From a virus (lineage: Duplodnaviria > Heunggongvirae > Uroviricota > Caudoviricetes), in the IMG/VR virus record IMGVR_UViG_2693429668_000006: a DNA stretch of 64,000 nt, one strand, 5' to 3'. The notes below the pieces were generated by a model. It was not told the origin of the DNA and did no database searches. It was given only the letters and a program-made list of their open reading frames with translations. Shown piece by piece: positions 11,788 through 58,834 of this stretch. The translations under genes and the position numbers were made by a program. The first letter of the stretch is position 1. Each line of letters opens with the position of its first letter.

Positions 11788-12576
11788 AATTCAGCACTGC
11801 CAGTATTTATTACTCAGCAGTGCCAATCGCGGCGGTGTTAGTTTTTGCCAATAAACGCACCGCTACTTGCACTTTTCGTTAGTGCCAGACGTTTTCGACT
11901 TCGCTCAATAGAAGGCAAAATCTTTAAGTAGATGATGTTTCTGAGGACAGCACCTACTTTGTAATTTACATAATGCGGTGTATGGAATCATTTGTTGTGA
12001 AAACAGGCACCAATGGCAACAGTGGTTAAACCTACACAACAATCCTGTCTTCACAACGTTGAGGCCACTACCCCGATTGAATGTTTGCCCAACATGTTAC
12101 ATATCAACGTTCGCCAGTATCTCTGTGAATAGAACCTTAGAATTGATAAAAATGTAATGGCCTCAACGTTGTGTGCTGGCTAACCATACCAGCCGGGCTA
12201 CGTCGCCGCTTTTTAACCCAGTATAAACGACATAATTGAACAAAATGACGTAACAGGATGGGCGGTCAGTGGCTAAGAATCCGGGAGTGATATGGAGTTG
12301 GAAATATACCGACCGCCCATTCTGTTACTTCATCGGAGAGGGCATGGGTGGTGCCGTATCATGCCCTCTCCTGCGTTCTGCAATCACACTCGCTCAGTGT
12401 GTCCCATTTCGGTAACGAGGCTGGAAACTGACCTCGCTGGTGTTTGGCTTATTAGGCTACTGCCAGATAGACTTCTTCGTTTGCACTTGTATTTAAGTTC
12501 AAACAGTCGCGTCTCAACGAAAACAAAGCCATCTTATACATAAAAGATAAGTAAGTAAATACTTATCGTGATGTTT

Positions 12577-16027: not shown

Positions 16028-16152
16028 ACCAACTCCTAGCTAACGGATGAAAGTATTCTTACAAAAACTTAAGTATGTATCTACTTATCATTTTAGGTGC
16101 AATAGTTCTTTATACTAAGATGCCGGGCATATCCTCAGCCCAGCATTCACCT

Positions 16153-21435: not shown

Positions 21436-21540
21436 CTGGTAGGTAGTTACTTACTTATCACAATGAGCGGATGATAGCGACTGGTGGCAGTTTTTGGAAG
21501 TGGAAACGGAAGGGACTTGTTCTGGTGGGTGTCTTTAAAA

Positions 21541-31190: not shown

Positions 31191-31283
31191 GTTGAATATG
31201 CTCCTTGATTTGGCGGGTTATCCTTGCCCGCCATTAAGTAAATACTTACCTATTTTTACCGATATAAAATTTTTTTTCCACCA

Positions 31284-51653: not shown

Positions 51654-52910
51654 CTATCGAGAACCACCAAGAATAACACGGTTTTTGACTGGATACCTAC
51701 GATGTACTGGATAGCCCAATGCGTCTGCACTATGCTCAATGCCACCTGTCTTATCCATATCTCGTGTTCCAGGCTTGTAGATGACTTTTTCCAGTGAATC
51801 AATCAAATGCTTGCACTTCGGATCGATATACAGCCGGATATCTCCAGATGCGGTCATCAGCATTCGGTTAACAGCATTAACACGATCCGCAATTGGCGGG
51901 TGCTTTTTCGAATAATCGACACGTAAGAATCCCTTCTCTTTGAATATGTCGACGTCAGACTCCCCGCGAGCATGTTGGCGATAAGCACCTGCCGGATCTG
52001 GAAATACCGTTATCTGTGATTTCCAGCGCCAGAAGCGTCTCTCAAGCTCATCACAAACCTCTGCCGTGTTAGAGGAAAAGAGCACCAATTCATCAATTGC
52101 CCATAGCTCACCATTTGGCTGAGGTTGCAAAATTACTGAAGACATCGGGTCAATGTTGAAGTCCTGCCCTACCCATATAGGCAACCGAGGGTTGAACTGA
52201 AGCGGTTTTACATGCACGTTACGATCGAACGGGTAGTAAACGCGCCCGGACATGTTCTCAAAGCTCGCCAGGTACTCCTGAGCGAACGATTTCGGGTCCA
52301 TATCGTTCTTAGCAGCTTCAATTTCCGCCGTAGGTACAAACGGAGAATCGGCAGTTACAAACTGCCAGCTCTTCCACTGTCCCTTTCTTTGCAGCTCTAC
52401 GTTCTGGCCTATAGTCCACAGTTTGTGAAATTCCGAGAAGCCTTTTGGCGTACCAATGATCAGTGCACCGCCGCGTGTCGATGAAAGAGTAGGTCGTAAC
52501 ACCTTGTACCAGGTGTCAGCCTTCATATCCTGAAATTCATCAAGCACTACAAAATGCAACGCTACGCCGCGCAGAGTGTCAGGCTTATCAGCACCTTTGA
52601 GGGCGATCTCCGAACCGTTCTTCAACACGATTGTCATCGTGGTGTCGTTCTTTTTCCTAACCCACTTACGAGGCAGAACTTCCTGTAGATCGTCCCACAA
52701 AATCTGGCGAGCCATCTGGTAAGTAGGAGCGACATACCAGACTCTTTGCTTTTTTTCCTTTGCCGCCGCACGAATAATAGTGGAGATCGACAACCGGGAT
52801 TTTCCCCAGCGTCGACCAGCACAAACAACTTTAAATCGATGCGGAGACTGGAAGACTTTCATCTGTCCAGAATGCAGTTGCACAAGACTGAGCGAGGACG
52901 GGATTGCCAT
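51654..52910 (-). CDS. terminase large subunit
   Basis: 418 aa; N-terminal Walker A VVCAGRRWGKS, Walker B-like LHFVVLDEFQD, C-terminal nuclease region. Confidence 0.85.
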   Translation of the reverse strand: MAIPSSLSLVQLHSGQMKVFQSPHRFKVVCAGRRWGKSRLSISTIIRAAAKEKKQRVWYVAPTYQMARQILWDDLQEVLPRKWVRKKNDTTMTIVLKNGSEIALKGADKPDTLRGVALHFVVLDEFQDMKADTWYKVLRPTLSSTRGGALIIGTPKGFSEFHKLWTIGQNVELQRKGQWKSWQFVTADSPFVPTAEIEAAKNDMDPKSFAQEYLASFENMSGRVYYPFDRNVHVKPLQFNPRLPIWVGQDFNIDPMSSVILQPQPNGELWAIDELVLFSSNTAEVCDELERRFWRWKSQITVFPDPAGAYRQHARGESDVDIFKEKGFLRVDYSKKHPPIADRVNAVNRMLMTASGDIRLYIDPKCKHLIDSLEKVIYKPGTRDMDKTGGIEHSADALGYPVHRRYPVKNRVILGGSR

Positions 52911-53542
52911 TATTCGTCCTCCCCTTCACTTCCATCATCTGTCGCATCAAATTCGCTTAGAGCTTCTTCTTCCAACGTCTCAAGCAATTCGTCATCGATG
53001 ATTTCAGGCTCGTCGTCTTCCTGACGTAATTTCGCCACCTGGGAAGGCGTAAGCTCACCAAATACCAGGTTCGGAATTTCTTCCTCGTCATTTTCCGCAT
53101 GATCCATGCCCAATGCTTTGGACGAAACTTCAAAGCATTTTGCAAGGGTATTACTGGCTCTCTGTAAGCTCTTGAGAGAATCCTCAATCGCCCCTAAAGG
53201 CTTACCCTCACGTTTGGCCGTAGTGACTTCGACCATCACCATCTGCCCCAACGCATACGCCCAGCCGTCATAACGTGTACGACGTTCTTCTATCTTTTCC
53301 GCACGGGCTTTAGCGCGAAGCTCTGCGTCAGATTTAAGAGACTCACGAACCATCTTCCCAACAGAGTCCGCGCCTTTCTCTAATCCTCGCTTTTTGAAAT
53401 GTCTGGAGAGTGTTTCACGACGAATGCCGTACTCTTCCTCCAGCTTTGAGAGTGTATATTCGCCTGACGTCCATTTGGCTTCAGCTTCGGCCCACTCCGC
53501 TGGTGTCAGGCGAGTTTTTACCTCGTCTTTTTCGACCGTCAT
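52910..53542 (-). CDS. terminase small subunit candidate
   Basis: 210 aa; HTH-like N-terminal segment, highly acidic C-terminal tail; 1-nt overlap with large subunit start. Confidence 0.55.
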   Translation of the reverse strand: MTVEKDEVKTRLTPAEWAEAEAKWTSGEYTLSKLEEEYGIRRETLSRHFKKRGLEKGADSVGKMVRESLKSDAELRAKARAEKIEERRTRYDGWAYALGQMVMVEVTTAKREGKPLGAIEDSLKSLQRASNTLAKCFEVSSKALGMDHAENDEEEIPNLVFGELTPSQVAKLRQEDDEPEIIDDELLETLEEEALSEFDATDDGSEGEDE

Positions 53543-53655
53543 AGATCCCTCTAAAACACACAGAGCGCGTCCATGCGCTCTAAAACAACTTGTTTACTGC
53601 ATCTGCTAACCAACTTGTTTTCTGGGGTGTTTAATTAGGTCTGGCATGTCTTACG

Positions 53656-53714
53656 AAGCCTGCTTCCGTATATATTTAATAAGTTACTTATTATTTATAT
53701 ATACAGATGCAGGT
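53656..53714. promoter_or_regulatory. 59-bp near-perfect palindrome, inverted near-identical copy of 21541-21599
   Basis: GCCTGCTTCCGTATATATTTAATAAGTTACTTATTATTTATATATACAGATGCAGGTC; about 55/59 identical to reverse complement of 21541-21599. Confidence 0.55.
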
Positions 53715-53737
53715 CTTTAAATAAGCTCCCAGACCGA

Positions 53738-54004
53738 TTACATCACCAGTAACTTCGCTTTGGCTCGACCTAAAGTGGTTAACCCAAGAGTCCGGCGGTG
53801 ATAGCGATTGTCACTGCGTTGGCGCGTATGCCCTTTCTCCACCAGCCCCTTTTTTATCAGAGCGCGAATTGAGAACTGGATACTTTGCTTGGTTGTCTTG
53901 TACGGCAAAACTTCAAGCAATTCGTCCAGGTCAAGTAGATGACCTCGCTCATAACCGAGATTGAGCGTTTTGATGATGTCCTTTTGTTTGTCGGTTAACG
54001 TCAT
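53738..54004 (-). CDS. small basic putative DNA-binding protein (winged-helix-like)
   Basis: 88 aa; last gene of the ParB/ABC operon, 10-nt gap from upstream gene. Confidence 0.4.
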   Translation of the reverse strand: MTLTDKQKDIIKTLNLGYERGHLLDLDELLEVLPYKTTKQSIQFSIRALIKKGLVEKGHTRQRSDNRYHRRTLGLTTLGRAKAKLLVM

Positions 54005-54013
54005 GGCAAATCC

Positions 54014-54904
54014 TTATGCCGGTAAAGCAATTTCTAACGGTTTATCCAAAGGTTGTTTGTCGAATGCCAGCAGTGGCAGCGTGTCAGGCAGTCGACGGCC
54101 AAAGTCAGGGTTTCGGTACACACCATACAACGGAGACGTAAAGCTCAGGTTGTGAATGTCCTTGAGCAGCTTCACAATGCTGGCCTCGTCCACCAGACTG
54201 TCGGCAATGTCCTGAATCGTCGTGCCACGATTCCGCCCAGCTTTTGCCAGGGAACTGTTCTTATGGTAGTCCGCCACCAAATCGCGCAGCGCACGGCGAC
54301 GACGAGACTCGCTCATAGCGAACAACTCTTTGACGATCGCCTCGTTATCACCCGGGTCGGAGCGGAAATGGCGCTGGAACACACGCAGTGCACTTTCATA
54401 GCTCTTCGGTCGCTCAGGGCGGATGAACTTAAACCCTGCTTTCATGGCGAAGGGATTGTATTTGCTCATCGAGGACTGGATCTCAATGATTGGCCGGTCA
54501 TGCATCCTGCTAACCAGGTTAATCATTCTATAAGAGACGCCTACGCCACGATACTGAGTATCCACAACTGAGCGACTGATCACCGCAAAGTTGTTATTCA
54601 CGTACCGACCCCAGTACTGGTTAGCCACGGTGGTATTAGTGGTTGGTTTCAACTTAGGAAACATGCGGTGGCGAGGTGCCAACAGTAGTTTCGGGTAAGC
54701 CATAACCACGACGCCCACCAGACGGTCATCAAGTTCGCAGCGATAGTAAGTTGGCGCGAAAGGTTTGCCGTCTGTTTTGTAGTGAAGCGACTTAAGAGCG
54801 TGCCAGTCCTCTACAGTTCCCTTTGTAACAGTCATTCGCTCCAGAAAGTCCAGATGACGCGGAAACTCTTCAGGGCGGTAGCGTTTAATGATGATGTCCG
54901 TCAT
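54014..54904 (-). CDS. GNAT-like acetyltransferase-fold protein with C-terminal extension
   Basis: 296 aa; GNAT motif A-like VVDTQYRGVGVSYRMINLV and terminal strand AMKAGFKFIR; ATGA-coupled to ABC ATPase gene. Confidence 0.5.
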   Translation of the reverse strand: MTDIIIKRYRPEEFPRHLDFLERMTVTKGTVEDWHALKSLHYKTDGKPFAPTYYRCELDDRLVGVVVMAYPKLLLAPRHRMFPKLKPTTNTTVANQYWGRYVNNNFAVISRSVVDTQYRGVGVSYRMINLVSRMHDRPIIEIQSSMSKYNPFAMKAGFKFIRPERPKSYESALRVFQRHFRSDPGDNEAIVKELFAMSESRRRRALRDLVADYHKNSSLAKAGRNRGTTIQDIADSLVDEASIVKLLKDIHNLSFTSPLYGVYRNPDFGRRLPDTLPLLAFDKQPLDKPLEIALPA

Positions 54905-55566
54905 GAATGGACCTCATCATGACTACCATTGTGATATTCCACCTTCACGCGTTCTTTGTAGTGCTTGGTGATCTGCATATCAGGGCGCAGCGCGTTCTTC
55001 AGGTCTTCGTGAGTCGTCGCCACCATTACCGTCGCACCAACCTTTCGAGCGGCACGCTGGAGGTTAGACGCCACAACCTGAGCGGTTACACGGTCGAGAA
55101 CAGCGCCGAACTCGTCAGCAGCCCATACTTTAGCGCCTGACTCAATCAGTTTGGCAATCTTGAGACGATATTTCTGGCCGTCTGACATTTCAGAAGGCTT
55201 GCGAACAAACAGATATGCATCGTTCAGACCAGCCATAGATAACAACCCAAGCGCATCACTGGTCGTTTTGCCCAACTGATCGATGACGTTAACCTCATTA
55301 TCGAAGGTAAAATCATCGATGGAGGCTACAGACAGCCCTTCATCCTTCATCTGTCGTTGCAACTCGCGCAGCACAACGGATTTGCCGGAACCGGATTGGC
55401 CGGTGATGTACACCACATCGCCCTGCTTCACTTCCAGCTCCAGATTGTCGTAAAGCGTCCACTCTTTTTCGTCCAGGCCAAGCCCGAACGACTCAGCGAT
55501 TTCCAACGTGCGCGTGGTTTTATTTACGCGTGTCTGAAACGATACGTTGATGATGTATTTGCTCAT
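54901..55566 (-). CDS. stand-alone ABC-type ATPase (nucleotide-binding domain only)
   Basis: 221 aa; Walker A GQSGSGKS, signature-like MSDGQKYRLKIA, Walker B VWAADEFGAVLD, H-loop TTHE; no permease gene adjacent. Confidence 0.75.
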   Translation of the reverse strand: MSKYIINVSFQTRVNKTTRTLEIAESFGLGLDEKEWTLYDNLELEVKQGDVVYITGQSGSGKSVVLRELQRQMKDEGLSVASIDDFTFDNEVNVIDQLGKTTSDALGLLSMAGLNDAYLFVRKPSEMSDGQKYRLKIAKLIESGAKVWAADEFGAVLDRVTAQVVASNLQRAARKVGATVMVATTHEDLKNALRPDMQITKHYKERVKVEYHNGSHDEVHS

Positions 55567-56264
55567 GCAGCCATCTCCCCGGAAGAGATCTTCTCCGCAT
55601 ATGCCACAAATGCGTCTACCCCGCTTTCTCCCGTCATTTCTTCCATATGGGCAAGCAAATCACCAACAACAATGGCAGAGCCAGCAGGGAGCGTTTTAAA
55701 GCCCAATACGTCGACAACACGTACTTCTTCCGCTGCAACTTCACGACTGATCTCGGTGTGTTCATCCTTCTGTCGTTTAGTTTCTTCGCCAAGATCGATA
55801 ACTAGCGAGTCGGTGTCCATTTCTTCTGTCATACTGCCAACGAGAACATTCAACTCACGCTCTTCAAAGCCGAAAACCTCGATATCGTCCAGAACAAGCG
55901 ACTCAAGCTCTTTCTGTAGCTTAATTGCATCGTAATCAATGCTGGCAAGTCGGTTATCTTCAAGGCGCTTCGCACGAACCTCGTCATCACTGAGATCATC
56001 GCGAACAATAACCGGTACGCGCTCAAGTCCAGCAAAAATTGCAGCCTCACGGCGGCCGTGGCCAGTAATAATTACGTCGTTCTTATCGACCGTAATTGGC
56101 TGGTCAAATCCGCGCTTTTTAATGGCTGCGGCTAGATCTCGGATCTGCTGTTCATCATGCTTTTTGGCATTCATCTCATAGGGAATAAGATCTGCCGGGT
56201 CGCGATATACGATTTCAAACTTTTTGGTCATTACATACGCTCCTTGTAGTAGTCGACCAGCCAC
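55563..56264 (-). CDS. ParB-like nuclease-domain protein (ParB/Srx fold)
   Basis: 233 aa; ParB N-domain motif IITGHGRREAA; acidic C-terminal half. Confidence 0.7.
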   Translation of the reverse strand: MAGRLLQGAYVMTKKFEIVYRDPADLIPYEMNAKKHDEQQIRDLAAAIKKRGFDQPITVDKNDVIITGHGRREAAIFAGLERVPVIVRDDLSDDEVRAKRLEDNRLASIDYDAIKLQKELESLVLDDIEVFGFEERELNVLVGSMTEEMDTDSLVIDLGEETKRQKDEHTEISREVAAEEVRVVDVLGFKTLPAGSAIVVGDLLAHMEEMTGESGVDAFVAYAEKISSGEMAA

Positions 56265-56929
56265 ACCAGAGCCTCACCAGCGTTCTCCATTTCATTACCG
56301 GTGTTAATAGCCTGCTCTTTGATGATGTTTTTTATGGTTTCTGCAACACGATCTGACGCATCGAAAGTTACTTTGAAGCGCATGGTCTGATGTTCCGCAC
56401 CCACACGTTCGGTTTTCTCTCGTTTGTCGGTATCGACAGGCTCATCACTACCACGAGACAACGCCTCCAGTGCTTCAAGGTCGATTGCCGCCTCTTTTGC
56501 TAAAACCATCGAGATTTCGTCGTCATACGGAGCGATTTCAGACAGTTGATAGTCAAGTTCTGACTGAATTTCTTCAATGAAGCGTTGCAATGCGATTTGG
56601 TCGTCTTCACCGTATCGCTCGTTGTCCACCAGTGACATCTGTTTAGCTACGACATCGCTAATTTTGCCCACAGAAAGCACCGGAACCGTTGAAATTCCTT
56701 GCTCAATAGCAGCACGCCAGCGATGTTCGCCGCCGAGGATTTCAAAAAATCCATCTTCAAGTTCACGAGCCAAAATTGGCTTAAAAAAGCCCAATTTTTC
56801 GATAGAACCTTTCAGTTTTTCAAAATTCTGCGCACCAACCGAATTGGTGTTCCAGGTATTCGGGCGAAGGTTGGCAACATCAACCTGCAAAATCGTGATT
56901 TTTACATCCATTTTATTGCTACAATCCAC
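56231..56929 (-). CDS. ParB-like nuclease-domain protein (second paralog)
   Basis: 232 aa; ParB N-domain motif ILGGEHRWRAA; overlaps downstream paralog by 34 nt. Confidence 0.7.
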   Translation of the reverse strand: MDCSNKMDVKITILQVDVANLRPNTWNTNSVGAQNFEKLKGSIEKLGFFKPILARELEDGFFEILGGEHRWRAAIEQGISTVPVLSVGKISDVVAKQMSLVDNERYGEDDQIALQRFIEEIQSELDYQLSEIAPYDDEISMVLAKEAAIDLEALEALSRGSDEPVDTDKREKTERVGAEHQTMRFKVTFDASDRVAETIKNIIKEQAINTGNEMENAGEALVWLVDYYKERM

Positions 56930-56993
56930 TAAGTAATCACTTACTTATTATAATAGCCAAATAACATACAAAAGGCACTAAGGAAAGAGGTTT

Positions 56994-58553
56994 ATGACTG
57001 TTCGGATTGTATCTAACGCAGTAAATGCGCTTATTTCTGGCGCAGATGACAAGGTAAAGCAACTGGTGCAGCAAATGTTGAGCTACGAAGTCGAGACTGG
57101 CGACTGGAAGGGCACAAGCACGATGTTCAACTGGAGTAAAAACTCGTTCCCTGCTGGCTTTGCCAAGCCTGTAGCGGCGAACTTGAACAAGGCGGGCATC
57201 AAATGTGTTCATATCCGCAAAGACAAAGCCCCGGCGCTTGGTAAACCAAATCCTGCGGTTAACCCATTCCCATACAATCCTGATTATGCGTATCAGGATC
57301 AGACTGTGGAAACACTGGTTCGAGAGGGAATGATGATTGCGCAGATCGCTACTGGTGGCGGGAAATCTAACGTTGCCTGCAAAGCAGCTGCACGTATCGG
57401 TCGAATGACATTATTTTTAACAACCCGCTCTGTTCTGATGTTTCAAATGGCCGAAAACTTCCAGAGATCCATCGACTACCGCGCCGAAAATGGCGAACCG
57501 TGGTTAAAAGACCAAAAGGTTGGAGTCATTGGCTCGGGTGAGTTCCAGGTATCACGACATATCAACGTCGCTACAGTTCAAACTCTTGCAAGTTTCCTCG
57601 AAGAACCACCACGCGATGCAACACCAGATAAGAAAAGCTACCACCTCAAACGTCGGGAGTTGGTGAAACGCTTCCTTTCAAGTGTCTCTCTTCTTATTCT
57701 GGAAGAGGCGCATGAGTCTTCAGGCTCAAATTTCTATGACATCGCCAGATTATGTGTGAACGCAGACTATCGTCTGGCGCTTACAGCCACGCCGTTCATG
57801 AAGGATTCGACGGAAGCCAACATGCGCCTGATGGCGGTGGCCGGGCGAATTGAAATTAAAGTCACAGAAAAGTACCTGATTGATCGAGGCATTCTGGCAA
57901 AGCCGTACTTCCTTTATCATAAAGTTGCCTACAAGCCAGACGAGGCCAGAATCAAGGCCGAACTTGCCAACAAACACCTCAATTTTAGAGTTGGTATGAG
58001 CACCGCCTACCAAAAGGCTTATCAGTTGGGGATCGTGTATAATTTGGGACGTAACGAGGCCATAGTGCGCGAGGCATTGCTTTATAAGCAACATTCACTC
58101 AACTGCATGACTCTGGTTCGTCTTAAACGCCACGGGCAAATCCTGATGGAGATGATGAAGGAGTCAGGTCTTAAAGTTGATTTCATCTATGGGGAATCTA
58201 ACCAGACGACAAGGCAAGCAAAGCTGAATAGTTTAGCGTCTGGTGAAATAGATGTTTTAATAGGCTCGACTATTCTGGATGTTGGTGTTGATGTGCCAAG
58301 CGTTGGTGCGGTCATTCTTGCTGGTGGTGGGAAAGCAGAAGTTGAAATGAGACAGCGTGTCGGTCGTGGCTTACGAGCCAAAAAAAATCAGGCAAACGTG
58401 TGTTTTATCACCGATTTCATTGACATTAGCAACAAATACCTGTTGTCTCACTCTTATGAGCGAAAACACATCATCGACACCACACCTGGCTTTGCAGAAG
58501 GTGTATTGCCTATTGATGGAGCATTCGATTTTGGAGTTCTGAAACGAGATTAG
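56994..58553 (+). CDS. superfamily 2 DEAD/DEAH-box-type helicase
   Basis: 519 aa; motif I IATGGGKS, motif II LILEEAHES, motif III LTATP, motif VI QRVGRGLR; strong SD AAGGAAAGAGG. Confidence 0.8.
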   Translation: MTVRIVSNAVNALISGADDKVKQLVQQMLSYEVETGDWKGTSTMFNWSKNSFPAGFAKPVAANLNKAGIKCVHIRKDKAPALGKPNPAVNPFPYNPDYAYQDQTVETLVREGMMIAQIATGGGKSNVACKAAARIGRMTLFLTTRSVLMFQMAENFQRSIDYRAENGEPWLKDQKVGVIGSGEFQVSRHINVATVQTLASFLEEPPRDATPDKKSYHLKRRELVKRFLSSVSLLILEEAHESSGSNFYDIARLCVNADYRLALTATPFMKDSTEANMRLMAVAGRIEIKVTEKYLIDRGILAKPYFLYHKVAYKPDEARIKAELANKHLNFRVGMSTAYQKAYQLGIVYNLGRNEAIVREALLYKQHSLNCMTLVRLKRHGQILMEMMKESGLKVDFIYGESNQTTRQAKLNSLASGEIDVLIGSTILDVGVDVPSVGAVILAGGGKAEVEMRQRVGRGLRAKKNQANVCFITDFIDISNKYLLSHSYERKHIIDTTPGFAEGVLPIDGAFDFGVLKRD

Positions 58554-58555
58554 TT

Positions 58556-58834
58556 ATGAGTGAAAAGAAAACAACTTACTGTCAGGTAGCATTGTCTGAT
58601 AAGGCCAATGACAAACTTGGAAAGTTTCAAGTGAAACTAAAAGAAAAAAATATCAAAATGTCTAAGGCTGAAGTCATAAATACCATTCTGGAACAATTGA
58701 CAATGGCCGACTTTGACAAGGTTATATCTTCTGTCGGGGCTTCCGCTAAGACTCGTGAGAAAATCATGCGTATCTATGAGAACTCTAATATGACAAAGGA
58801 AGATCTCGAAACGCTATTAAGCAGATTAAAATAA
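58556..58834 (+). CDS. hypothetical protein (92 aa)
   Basis: ORF track; 2-nt gap after helicase. Confidence 0.45.
   Translation: MSEKKTTYCQVALSDKANDKLGKFQVKLKEKNIKMSKAEVINTILEQLTMADFDKVISSVGASAKTREKIMRIYENSNMTKEDLETLLSRLK

What the first reader, a model, noticed from the sequence alone, without database searches (positions are those of the whole stretch)
54014..56929. Tightly coupled operon: two ParB-like proteins, a stand-alone ABC ATPase and a GNAT-like protein, divergent from an SF2 helicase
Four minus-strand genes overlap by ATGA or longer (56231-56929, 55563-56264, 54901-55566, 54014-54904), followed by a small basic protein (53738-54004), so they are almost certainly co-translated as one unit. 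The ABC ATPase has all nucleotide-binding-domain motifs but no permease partner. Both ParB-like proteins carry the ParB/Srx GxxRxxA motif, and the 296-aa protein has a GNAT-like core. The operon shares a divergent promoter region (56930-56993, with a GGTAAGTA-type palindrome) with a DEAH-type SF2 helicase (56994-58553) and sits next to the terminase. I do not recognise this combination as any named partition, packaging, modification or defence system. ParB-fold proteins and ABC ATPases both occur in DNA-targeting immunity and DNA-modification systems, so this is my top candidate for an undescribed module, possibly DNA-modification, anti-defence or packaging-accessory.
Basis: partly seen in the sequence, partly recalled or inferred. 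Interest (0 to 1): 0.8.

Follow-up and report, generated by a model that had tools for sequence, protein, structure and literature searches.

The report
ParB-partnered ATPase–acyltransferase module of phages
This is a real five-gene operon of an SSU5-type phage-plasmid; its core, a ParB-like protein working with an ATPase and an acyltransferase, recurs in unrelated bacterial and archaeal viruses, has no known function, and most likely chemically modifies phage DNA.

Summary
The window is an E. coli SSU5-like phage-plasmid (98.5% identical to phage Cyrano). It carries five coupled minus-strand genes: ParB1, ParB2, a soluble ABC ATPase, a 296-aa GNAT-fold protein and an 88-aa basic protein.

The ABC and GNAT genes are a split form of an uncharacterised fused family, "ABC-type ATPase with predicted acetyltransferase domain" (COG2401). 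In archaea that family sits inside tailed proviruses. ParB2 is the conserved partner. A ParB2-type gene lies directly upstream of ABC(-GNAT) in Pasteurella, Streptococcus, Oenococcus, Gordonia and Leptospira phages, and is fused to it in metagenomic phages. ParB2 also matches the N-terminal module of phage ParB–methyltransferases.

Other lineages add a dedicated formyltransferase, aspartate decarboxylase or amidoligase, or fuse ABC-GNAT to DNA polymerase B. The best viral fold match is Mom. The helicase belongs to a T4-like recombination set and is not part of the module.

Best reading (about 0.4): a ParB-assisted, ATP-gated acyltransferase that modifies phage DNA before packaging. No chemistry has been shown. 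I found no paper describing the module. It occurs in 967 PLSDB plasmids, including Yersinia pestis plasmids.

The parts
56231..56929 (-). ParB1: ParB/Srx-fold protein, 232 aa from the GTG at 56929 or more probably 226 aa from the ATG at 56911. Acidic (pI 4.6). Resembles canonical ParB through the region after the N domain. Found only in the SSU5 lineage.
   Evidence: Pfam ParB_N 3.3e-13. phrog_723 2e-79. Aligns to Spo0J 1vz0 residues 23-171, E 2.6e-9. Invariant G66 G67 H69 R70 and D102 N103 R105 across 73 orthologues. No ParA-binding motif.
55563..56231 (-). ParB2: ParB/Srx nucleotide-binding domain, acidic helix and small C-terminal helical bundle, 222 aa from the ATG at 56231. This is the widely conserved partner of ABC-GNAT.
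   Evidence: Pfam ParB_N 1.5e-8. phrog_930 1e-112 and phrog_498 'DNA methyltransferase' N-module 5e-32. PADLOC MTase_II 2.7e-17. ParB2-specific HMM hits the ParB next to ABC(-GNAT) in Pmp13 (4e-41), Javan511 (2e-39) and Oenococcus (3.5e-24). Model pLDDT 80; about 135 residues match Noc/ParB/KorB.
54901..55566 (-). Soluble ABC-type ATPase, 221 aa. It is the N-terminal half of the split ABC-GNAT enzyme.
   Evidence: Pfam ABC_tran 5.8e-13. All nucleotide-binding motifs present. Homologous to the N halves of fused 450-500 aa proteins. ATGA overlaps on both sides.
54014..54904 (-). GNAT-fold acyltransferase, 296 aa, basic (pI 9.8). It has two insertions: residues 70-105 and a helical insert at about 165-255. 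It is the C-terminal half of the split ABC-GNAT enzyme.
53738..54004 (-). 88-aa basic protein (pI 10.2), probably a winged helix-turn-helix. Always follows the GNAT gene in the SSU5-like lineage.
   Evidence: phrog_900 1.9e-45. Weak matches to a CARF-associated wHTH (4.5e-5) and to Sta1/Lrs14 regulators. Found in 120 loci at the same position.
56930..56947 (.). Palindromic operator TAAGTAA-N4-TTACTTA. On the operon strand it directly follows a TATAAT (56947-56952), about 20-40 nt upstream of the ParB1 start.
   Evidence: Sequence. Three exact and six one-mismatch copies of TAAGTA-N6-TACTTA in the window, against 0 and 0.18 expected. Conserved as TAAGTCA..TGACTTA in relatives with about 40% protein identity.
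53561..53582 (-). Terminator-like hairpin between the 88-aa gene and the TerS-like gene. It may close the five-gene transcription unit.
   Evidence: Consensus scan: 8-bp stem with 5 GC pairs and a T-rich tail. The number of such sites equals the shuffled expectation, so this is weak evidence.
56994..58553 (+). Divergent SF2 helicase (UvsW/XPB-like). A neighbour, not judged part of the module.
   Evidence: Pfam ResIII, DEAD and Helicase_C. Annotated UvsW in Cyrano. UvsW_N weak hit in a homologue. Motifs GGGKS, EEAH, TAT and QRVGRGLR. The phage also has UvsY, gp32-like SSB, RecA and SbcCD.
51654..53542 (-). TerS-like DNA-binding protein (52910-53542) and large terminase (51654-52910), directly downstream on the same strand. 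Context, not module.
   Evidence: phrog_867. Pfam Terminase_6N and Terminase_6C.

Best explanation
The operon most likely encodes a ParB-assisted, ATP-gated acyltransferase that acts on phage DNA after replication and before or during packaging.

Proposed mechanism (all steps inferred, none shown):
1. The ABC ATPase (221 aa) and the GNAT protein (296 aa) form one enzyme. They are fused in most relatives.
2. ATP-driven dimerisation of the ABC domains positions or opens the substrate.
3. The GNAT domain then transfers an acyl group from an acyl-CoA-type donor.
4. ParB2, an NTP-binding ParB fold without a canonical DNA-binding domain, acts as the obligatory activator or DNA-tethering partner. ParB folds play this role for phage T-dioxygenases, in phage ParB-methyltransferase fusions, and as DpdB and DndB.
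5. ParB1, which is closer to canonical ParB, and the 88-aa wHTH-like protein are SSU5-lineage additions. They probably supply DNA binding or regulation.

Shown here: the folds and motifs, the split/fused relationship, and the recurrent gene neighbourhoods.

Inferred: DNA as the substrate, the acyl donor, the role of ATP, and protection from host nucleases as the benefit.
For: 1. ABC and GNAT are one enzyme. The GNAT profile retrieves many 450-500 aa proteins with an N-terminal ABC_tran domain and a C-terminal GNAT. Fused P0185 aligns to both window genes over 96% of its length.

2. The GNAT domain is probably active. R119 and G122 of the acyl-CoA loop are invariant, and the same RGxGxG motif is in the fused consensus.

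3. ParB is linked to ABC-GNAT in independent lineages. It is adjacent, usually overlapping, in Gordonia Sisko and Jace, Leptospira LE4, Pasteurella Pmp13, Streptococcus Javan511, an Oenococcus phage, L165 and L166. It is fused in L118 (666 aa; ParB HMMs E 4e-11 and 9e-10; BLASTP 4e-5) and more weakly in L110 and L112.

4. ParB2 is the same module that phages fuse to DNA methyltransferases.

5. Other DNA-linked contexts exist:
- fusion to family-B DNA polymerase (P0207, P0182)
- an intein in the ABC domain (P0162)
- a C-terminal TFIIB repeat (P0154)
- nucleases next to it in archaeal proviruses

6. Biosynthetic partners are typical of base-modification clusters. A dedicated formyltransferase subfamily has full-length relatives only in ABC-GNAT phages and is always adjacent (Burkholderia, Pseudomonas and Gordonia; shorter, weaker matches also adjacent in Porphyromonas and two faecal phage contigs). 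PanD follows ABC-GNAT in Jace and Amidoligase_2 follows it in L091. In the Mu-like phage phiE255 the cassette sits after the tail-fibre genes. From my own knowledge of the Mu map, mom occupies that position in Mu.

7. The best viral structural match of the GNAT protein is Mom, the DNA-adenine modifier.

8. There is experimental precedent. Phage ParB-like proteins with a nucleotide-binding domain and a C-terminal domain but no DNA-binding domain are required activators of post-replicative DNA T-dioxygenases. In those neighbourhoods terminases are among the commonest co-occurring genes, at 19% (PMC13229309). Separately, a bacterial ParB-acetyltransferase fusion binds GTP (PMC12704722).

9. The GNAT protein and the 88-aa protein are basic, with pI of 9.8 and 10.2.
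Against: - No modified base is known for SSU5-like phages, and nothing here shows a chemical product.
- The ATPase resembles transporter-type nucleotide-binding domains rather than SMC/Rad50-type DNA ATPases.
- Many ABC-GNAT lineages have no adjacent ParB. The largest archaeal group is one of them.
- The SSU5 lineage itself lacks the formyltransferase, PanD or amidoligase partners.
- The ParB assignment in the L110 and L112 fusions is weak.
Confidence: 0.4

Rival explanations
1. Packaging-coupled factor. The ParB-ABC-GNAT complex works with the terminase, for example in recognising, nicking or protecting the packaging site or DNA ends. Alternatively it acylates a packaging or head protein, or polyamines that neutralise packaged DNA.
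For: In the SSU5 lineage the module is always directly upstream of TerS and TerL on the same strand. Fused ABC-GNAT lies immediately downstream of TerL in about 20 archaeal-type loci and in L182. A terminase lies within about 3 kb in Sisko, LE4, Javan511, Pmp13 and L118. A 55-bp AT-rich palindrome, at the point where the SSU5 and Cyrano records are linearised, lies between the module and TerS.
Against: A separate TerS-like gene is present, so the module does not replace TerS. In phiE255, Porphyromonas phages, L178 and Nonlabens P12024S the gene is not next to a terminase. DNA-modification genes of phages also cluster near terminases (PMC13229309), so position does not discriminate. Formyltransferase, PanD and amidoligase partners and the polymerase fusion have no obvious packaging role.
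Confidence: 0.2
2. Host-takeover or anti-defence acyltransferase. The ATP-gated GNAT acylates a host protein (for example a defence or nucleoid protein), an aminoacyl-tRNA or a signalling or small molecule. ParB serves as an NTP-dependent regulator rather than a DNA adaptor.
For: GNAT enzymes mostly act on proteins and small molecules. ABC ATPases commonly serve as sensor or regulator modules for effectors in conflict systems (PMC10853773). The gene often sits at accessory-gene positions: provirus edges, after tail fibres, and next to nucleases. Formyltransferase relatives include Met-tRNA formyltransferase.
Against: There are no matches to known defence or anti-defence families. The module is a syntenic core block over about 40% protein divergence, not a variable cargo gene. 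The fusions to DNA polymerase, ParB and a TFIIB repeat point to DNA.
Confidence: 0.2
3. The two ParB proteins are plasmid partition or KorB-like transcription factors of the phage-plasmid. They merely share an operon with an unrelated ABC-GNAT enzyme.
For: The element is a phage-plasmid, and the literature reads the duplicated ParB genes of the related Acinetobacter (AB) phage-plasmid group as partition genes (PMC7969092). ParB1 aligns with Spo0J beyond the N domain. A conserved multi-copy palindrome sits at the operon promoter, as with KorB operators. A MinD/ParA-like gene exists about 13 kb away in Cyrano.
Against: There is no adjacent ParA, and neither protein has a ParA-binding motif. ParB2-type genes pair with ABC(-GNAT) in integrating or lytic phages that need no partition. 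ParB is fused to ABC-GNAT in L118. The ParB2 model lacks a canonical HTH domain.
Confidence: 0.08
4. The ATPase is the energising subunit of a membrane ABC transporter, using a host permease.
For: The best sequence matches are transporter nucleotide-binding domains such as CcmA, DevA, MetN and ABCB1. Databases annotate it as 'ABC transporter'.
Against: No permease gene and no hydrophobic segment occur anywhere in the operon. The domain is fused to GNAT, ParB or DNA polymerase in relatives. It is encoded in viral structural or packaging modules in bacteria and archaea.
Confidence: 0.02

Closest known systems
COG2401-type 'ABC-type ATPase with predicted acetyltransferase domain' (fused ABC-GNAT proteins; function uncharacterised)
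   Same: Homologous over both halves with the same domain order (ABC then GNAT) and the same conserved motifs: FGLG, GxSGSGKS, LSDGQKYR, DEF..LDR, HY(K/R), RGxGxG, YNPF..KAG and the C-terminal Y..W.NP.
   Different: Here the enzyme is split into two genes overlapping by ATGA. The GNAT half carries a 35-residue insertion (residues 70-105) that is absent from minimal versions such as phiE255 gp29. I show that the archaeal members lie in tailed proviruses.
ParB-dependent phage T-dioxygenases (5mYOX with ParB; PMC13229309)
   Same: A phage ParB-fold protein with a nucleotide-binding domain and a C-terminal domain, but no canonical DNA-binding domain, is encoded next to an enzyme. The gene clusters often lie near terminases.
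   Different: The partner enzyme here is an ABC ATPase plus GNAT acyltransferase, not an Fe/2-oxoglutarate dioxygenase. Dependence on ParB and action on DNA are untested.
Phage ParB-methyltransferase fusions (phrog_498; PADLOC MTase_II PDLC03229)
   Same: ParB2 matches their N-terminal 150 residues strongly, at E 5e-32 and 2.7e-17. These fusions are common in prophages (PMC12704722).
   Different: There is no methyltransferase domain. The ParB module is a separate protein partnered with ABC-GNAT, or fused to it in L118.
Phage Mu Mom (GNAT-fold enzyme that modifies adenine in DNA)
   Different: No sequence-level family membership. Mom works without an ATPase or ParB partner. The product here is unknown.
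Dnd and Dpd DNA-modification systems (DndB ParB-like with DndD ABC ATPase; DpdA with DpdB ParB-like ATPase)
   Same: The logic is the same: a ParB-fold protein, an NTPase and a modifying enzyme acting on DNA (PMC10853773; PMC12839542).
   Different: The catalytic chemistry differs: GNAT acyl transfer against sulfur insertion or base exchange. This ABC lacks the coiled-coil insert of DndD. These are viral late-operon genes, not cellular defence islands. PADLOC matches are only noise-level.
TmcA/NAT10 (P-loop ATPase fused to GNAT; ATP-dependent N4-acetylation of cytidine in RNA)
   Same: Both couple an ATPase to a GNAT domain that acts on a nucleic-acid base. This comparison rests on my own knowledge and was not tested here.

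Membership tests
COG2401-type ABC-GNAT family | ABC nucleotide-binding domain with Walker A, signature, Walker B and H-loop | tested here: met
   Pfam ABC_tran 50.1 bits against a cutoff of 25. Motifs located.
COG2401-type ABC-GNAT family | GNAT-fold domain with an acyl-CoA-binding loop (R/Q-x-x-G-x-G/A) | tested here: met
COG2401-type ABC-GNAT family | Sequence homology to fused members across both halves | tested here: met
   Profile search E 1e-27 to 1e-15 to the C halves of 450-500 aa ABC_tran proteins. tblastn of fused P0185 covers 96% of its length across the two window genes.
COG2401-type ABC-GNAT family | Both domains on one polypeptide | tested here: not met
   Two genes overlapping by ATGA. 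This is a split variant, conserved as such throughout the SSU5-like lineage.
ParABS partition system | ParA ATPase gene in the same operon | tested here: not met
   No ParA in the operon. The nearest MinD/ParA-like gene is about 13 kb away in Cyrano.
ParABS partition system | N-terminal ParA-binding motif (L/F/I)G(K/R)G(L/F/I) | tested here: not met
   Regex search of both proteins found none. Motif definition taken from PMC12704722.
ParABS partition system | ParB/Srx NTP-binding fold with GxxR box II | tested here: met
ParABS partition system | Central HTH DNA-binding domain and cognate parS sites | tested here: inconclusive
   ParB1 aligns to Spo0J residues 23-171, but no structure was predicted for it. 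The ParB2 model shows no canonical HTH domain. A conserved palindrome exists but its binder is unknown.
ABC transporter | Membrane permease partner or fused transmembrane domain | tested here: not met
   No hydrophobic segment in any of the five proteins (maximum Kyte-Doolittle score 1.46) and no permease ORF nearby.
Mom-type DNA modification enzyme | Sequence membership in the Mom family | tested here: not met
   No Pfam, PHROG or NCBIfam match other than phrog_886. Similarity is structural only.
Mom-type DNA modification enzyme | Produces a modified base in phage DNA | not testable with these tools
   Requires LC-MS of virion DNA.
ParB-dependent DNA-modifying enzymes (5mYOX with ParB, ParB-MTase, DpdAB) | ParB-fold partner adjacent to or fused with the enzyme in several lineages | tested here: met
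ParB-dependent DNA-modifying enzymes (5mYOX with ParB, ParB-MTase, DpdAB) | Enzyme acts on DNA and needs the ParB partner | not testable with these tools
   Requires co-expression and in vitro assays.
Known anti-phage defence systems (PADLOC) | Significant match of the components to a defined system | tested here: not met
   The GNAT protein has no hit. The ABC gives only generic ATPase hits (mad3, PtuA). The ParBs hit only the N-module of MTase_II.
Small terminase | The DNA-recognition subunit encoded directly upstream of TerL | tested here: not met
   A separate 210-aa TerS-like gene (phrog_867) occupies that position and overlaps the TerL start.

The most novel reading that the evidence does not exclude
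ABC-GNAT with its ParB partner is an ancient enzyme of tailed viruses, shared by bacterial and archaeal viruses. In this reading it installs a previously unknown acyl-type DNA base modification, which some lineages extend by formylation, decarboxylation or amide ligation. ATP hydrolysis and a ParB-fold NTP switch would gate access to duplex DNA.
Probability: 0.3. Interest if true: 0.85.

Novelty: new variant of a known kind. Interest (0 to 1): 0.66.

Why it matters
The module is very common but unexplained.

- Prevalence: the GNAT gene alone is in 967 of 72,556 PLSDB plasmids. These include Klebsiella (341), Escherichia (207), Acinetobacter (147), Yersinia (62; two listed Y. pestis plasmids of about 100 kb carry it at 99% identity) and Salmonella (49). 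It also occurs in archaeal proviruses and in Gordonia, Streptococcus, Leptospira and Burkholderia phages.
- Annotation: databases currently call the genes 'ABC transporter' and 'partition protein', and both labels are probably wrong.
- Biochemistry: if the module modifies DNA, it adds an ATP-dependent acyl-transfer route to the known phage DNA modifications. It would also be a second enzyme class activated by a ParB fold, a question opened experimentally only in 2025-2026.
- Practical use: it would bear on restriction evasion by clinically widespread phage-plasmids and on sequencing and cloning of their DNA. It would also supply candidate enzymes for DNA labelling.
- Testability: the question can be tested directly by co-expression followed by nucleoside mass spectrometry.

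Tried and rejected
**Searches that found nothing**
- Pfam, NCBIfam and PADLOC on the 296-aa protein gave no hit.
- PDB sequence searches with the single sequence and with the profile gave nothing meaningful: AlkD at E about 1 and a chimera at 0.22.
- Literature searches for COG2401, 'ABC-type ATPase fused', SSU5+ParB+ABC, ParB+GNAT+ABC ATPase and ParB-like nuclease+terminase+ABC found no description of the module.
- Two papers most likely to mention it could not be read because they are not held: Krishnan et al. 2020 (NAR, ABC ATPase classification) and Iyer et al. 2013 (NAR, DNA base modifications). Prior computational mention therefore cannot be excluded.

**Analyses that were uninformative or limited**
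- The first viral-contig scan with the GNAT alignment returned only close SSU5-like loci, so it said nothing about distant context.
- My automated co-occurrence count with strict lineage-specific HMMs undercounted. It found ParB in 7 of 25 lineages and TerL in 8 of 25, because it misses distant ParB, TerL and GNAT halves. Adding record annotations and weaker HMM hits gives at least 10 and at least 12 of 25.
- Enterococcus phage 9184 ORF024 as the GNAT half is inconclusive (hhalign E 0.034).
- The consensus promoter scan found no sigma-70 promoter in the divergent region. The -10-like TATAAT elements were read by eye.

**Ideas rejected**
- The helicase as a module member: it co-occurs only within the SSU5-like lineage.
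- The ABC as a transporter: no permease is present.
- The module as a replacement for TerS: a separate TerS-like gene is present.

Full report
**What the window is.** The region 53700-58600 is 98.5% identical to Escherichia phage Cyrano and 83% identical to Salmonella phage SSU5, so the window is an SSU5-type phage-plasmid of E. coli. The public records annotate the five genes as ParB protein, ParB-like nuclease domain protein, ABC transporter, [quoted passage not shown], and DNA-binding-domain protein. The divergent gene is annotated as UvsW helicase.

**Checking the observation.**
- All ORFs exist as described.
- Both ParB-like proteins pass the Pfam ParB_N threshold, and the ATPase passes ABC_tran. 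The 296-aa and 88-aa proteins have no Pfam match.
- The stated motifs are present: GEHRWRA and GHGRREA in the ParBs, and Walker A, signature MSDGQ, Walker B, D-loop and H-loop in the ATPase.
- The helicase has GGGKS, EEAH, TAT and QRVGRGLR.
- None of the five proteins has a membrane-like segment.
- Junctions, read on the coding strand, are TAATG (ParB1/ParB2 if ParB2 starts at the annotated ATG at 56231), ATGA (ParB2/ABC), ATGA (ABC/GNAT) and a 9-nt gap before the 88-aa gene.
ParB1 probably starts at the ATG at 56911.
- The intergenic palindrome is TAAGTAA-N4-TTACTTA.

**The 296-aa protein.** An AlphaFold model built on 29 homologues has pLDDT 85.
- Among predicted viral structures the best hit is Mom.
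- The secondary-structure order suggests one GNAT domain with two insertions: residues 70-105, and a helical insert at about 165-255 before the last strand.
- The acyl-CoA pyrophosphate loop RGVGVS is conserved, with R119 and G122 invariant.

**ABC and GNAT are one enzyme.** A profile search of 1.84 billion representative proteins found 888 relatives. Many are 450-500 aa long, with the GNAT region in the C-terminal half and an ABC_tran domain in the N-terminal half.
- JGI names them "ABC-type ATPase with predicted acetyltransferase domain".
- A fused example, P0185, aligns by tblastn to the two window genes in order, over 96% of its length at 35% identity.
- Variants are fused to family-B DNA polymerase (P0207, P0182), carry an intein in the ABC domain (P0162), or end in a TFIIB repeat (P0154).

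**Distribution.**
- Within the SSU5-like lineage the block is syntenic down to about 40% identity. The order is helicase (divergent), ParB1, ParB2, ABC, GNAT, 88-aa protein, TerS-like, TerL, portal.
- This holds in chromosomal prophages (L003, L004), Pseudomonas phage nickie, Rhizobium phage RHEph10 and many metagenomic contigs. Small variable ORFs are inserted between the core genes.
- The GNAT gene is in 31 phage records and 967 plasmid records. These include 62 Yersinia records, with two listed Y. pestis plasmids of about 100 kb at 99% identity, as well as Klebsiella and Acinetobacter.
- The archaeal fused proteins (Nitrososphaerota, Aigarchaeota) lie inside tailed proviruses. They sit directly after TerL (L182), after tail genes next to an SNase nuclease (L178), or two genes upstream of a PLD-type nuclease (L180).
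- The family therefore looks viral rather than cellular.

**ParB is the recurrent partner.** A ParB-like gene immediately precedes ABC(-GNAT) in the following unrelated phages:
- Gordonia Sisko (gp1, gp2) and Jace (gp85, gp86)
- Leptospira LE4 (gp14, gp15)
- Pasteurella Pmp13
- Streptococcus Javan511
- an Oenococcus phage
- loci L165 and L166

Further points on the pairing:
- HMMs built separately from positionally defined ParB1 and ParB2 orthologues show these partners are ParB2-type. Pmp13 scores 4e-41 against 2e-16, Javan511 scores 2e-39 against 4e-14, and the Oenococcus protein scores 3.5e-24 against 6e-9.
- In L118 a ParB-like N-terminus is fused to ABC-GNAT in one 666-aa protein. L110 and L112 look similar, but the evidence there is weak.
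- ParB2 also matches strongly the N-terminal module of phage ParB-methyltransferases (phrog_498 at 5e-32; PADLOC MTase_II at 2.7e-17).
- Its model shows a ParB/Noc/KorB-like nucleotide-binding domain, an acidic helix and a small C-terminal helical bundle, with no canonical HTH domain.
- ParB1 is confined to the SSU5 lineage and aligns with Spo0J through residue 171.
- Neither protein has a ParA-binding motif, and no ParA gene is nearby.
- Box II and a DN-containing box III-like motif are invariant in both orthologue sets.

**Other recurrent neighbours.**
- A formyltransferase follows ABC-GNAT in Burkholderia phiE255 (gp29, gp30), Pseudomonas Komp_PAO1_1, ten Gordonia phages (gene 3), Porphyromonas phages and faecal phage contigs. 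Full-length relatives of the phiE255 enzyme occur only in ABC-GNAT-carrying phages.
- Aspartate decarboxylase follows it in Jace, and an Amidoligase_2 enzyme follows it in L091.
- A large terminase lies within about 3 kb in at least 12 of 25 ABC lineages defined at 60% identity. It is immediately upstream of the fused gene in the largest archaeal-type group.

**Interpretation.** The contexts point to DNA: ParB, polymerase B, the TFIIB repeat, nucleases, terminase and the basic wHTH-like protein. The amine-directed partner enzymes (formyltransferase, decarboxylase, amidoligase) resemble phage base-hypermodification clusters.

Two recent experimental papers provide precedent.
- Phage ParB-like proteins with a nucleotide-binding and a C-terminal domain, but no DNA-binding domain, are required activators of post-replicative T-dioxygenases. 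Terminases are among the most frequent neighbours of those genes (PMC13229309).
- The ParB fold binds CTP, ATP or GTP and is often fused to methyltransferases in prophages and to an acetyltransferase in a bacterium (PMC12704722).
- DpdB and DndB are further ParB-fold components of DNA-modification systems.

I therefore favour an ATP-gated, ParB-assisted acyl transfer to phage DNA, at about 0.4. No step of the chemistry is shown.

Packaging-coupled and protein- or small-molecule-directed functions remain serious rivals, at about 0.2 each. A purely partition or regulatory role for the ParBs is unlikely, given the pairings in non-plasmid phages and the fusion. A transporter role is essentially excluded.

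**The helicase.** It is always divergent from the operon in the SSU5-like lineage. Cyrano also encodes UvsY, a gp32-like SSB, RecA, SbcCD and RuvC, so the helicase fits a T4-like recombination-replication set. Outside this lineage it does not accompany ABC-GNAT, except in Nonlabens phage P12024S, where a related helicase lies about 1 kb downstream.

**Regulation.**
- The palindrome upstream of ParB1 directly follows a TATAAT on the operon strand.
- TAAGTA-N6-TACTTA occurs three times exactly and six times with one mismatch or fewer in the window. All copies appear to lie between the larger ORFs, against 0 and 0.18 expected.
- Distant relatives keep a related palindrome (TAAGTCA..TGACTTA) at the same place.
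- It is therefore a genome-wide operator or promoter element. Its binding protein is unknown; ParB1 and the 88-aa protein are candidates.

**Novelty.** The genes carry generic or misleading database names. The one paper that comments on such genes treats the duplicated ParBs of a related phage-plasmid group (Acinetobacter AB) as partition genes (PMC7969092). I found no description of the ParB-ABC-GNAT module. I rate it a new variant of a known kind, namely ParB-partnered nucleic-acid modification enzymes.

Noticed in passing
window 8655-8672, 12548-12565, 16070-16087, 21440-21457, 31235-31252, 56930-56947: A palindromic motif, TAAGTA-N6-TACTTA, has three exact and six one-mismatch copies, against 0 and 0.18 expected. 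All lie between the larger ORFs, several just upstream of gene starts and next to -10-like hexamers. More copies occur in the rest of the Cyrano genome, and a related palindrome is kept in distant relatives. It is probably the operator or promoter element of a phage-wide regulator.
   Followed up: partly
window 53659-53713: An AT-rich imperfect palindrome of about 55 bp is centred at 53685, between the 88-aa gene and the TerS-like gene. The linear GenBank records of SSU5 and Cyrano both end inside it, at about window position 53676. It is a candidate cos/pac or other packaging-related site.
   Followed up: partly
window 53561-53582 (minus strand): A terminator-like hairpin (8-bp stem, T-rich tail) lies just upstream of the TerS-like start. 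It would separate the five-gene operon from the terminase genes. The count of such sites in the region is no higher than in shuffled sequence.
   Followed up: no
L172 4589-5203 (phiE255 gp30); L087 1814-2464 (Sisko gp3); L170 4586-5059: A formyltransferase subfamily has full-length relatives only in phages that carry ABC-GNAT, and it always sits directly downstream of that gene (Burkholderia, Pseudomonas, Gordonia). Shorter matches are also adjacent in Porphyromonas and faecal phage contigs. In Gordonia records it is annotated as 'tRNA-methyltransferase', but Pfam identifies Formyl_trans_N.
   Followed up: partly
proteins P0162, P0207, P0182, P0154: Relatives of the ABC-GNAT enzyme carry an intein with a LAGLIDADG endonuclease inside the ABC domain. 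Others are fused to a complete family-B DNA polymerase or end in a TFIIB repeat.
   Followed up: no
L149 8614-9132; L155 7144-7986; L084 9439-10008: In relatives, variable ORFs are inserted between the conserved module genes. They include a thioredoxin-like protein (7 loci), an SPFH/Band-7 protein, and a 189-aa protein without any Pfam match that sits between ABC and GNAT in 30 Klebsiella-type loci.
   Followed up: partly
L178 10491-10970; L180 11673-12257: In archaeal proviruses a nuclease gene lies close downstream of the fused ABC-GNAT gene. An SNase-type gene follows it directly in L178, and a PLD-type gene lies two genes downstream in L180.
   Followed up: no
plasmid hits H109, H112: Yersinia plasmids (62 records) carry the GNAT gene. 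The two listed Y. pestis plasmids of about 100 kb carry it at 99% identity to the E. coli phage-plasmid copy. I did not check whether the whole module is intact there.
   Followed up: no
Cyrano record, L176 and L177: The phage-plasmid encodes a second small ABC ATPase (CYRAN_75) beside DHFR and polynucleotide kinase. It also encodes a methionyl-tRNA synthetase, cobalamin-related genes, and HicAB and RelE-type toxin-antitoxin genes.
   Followed up: no
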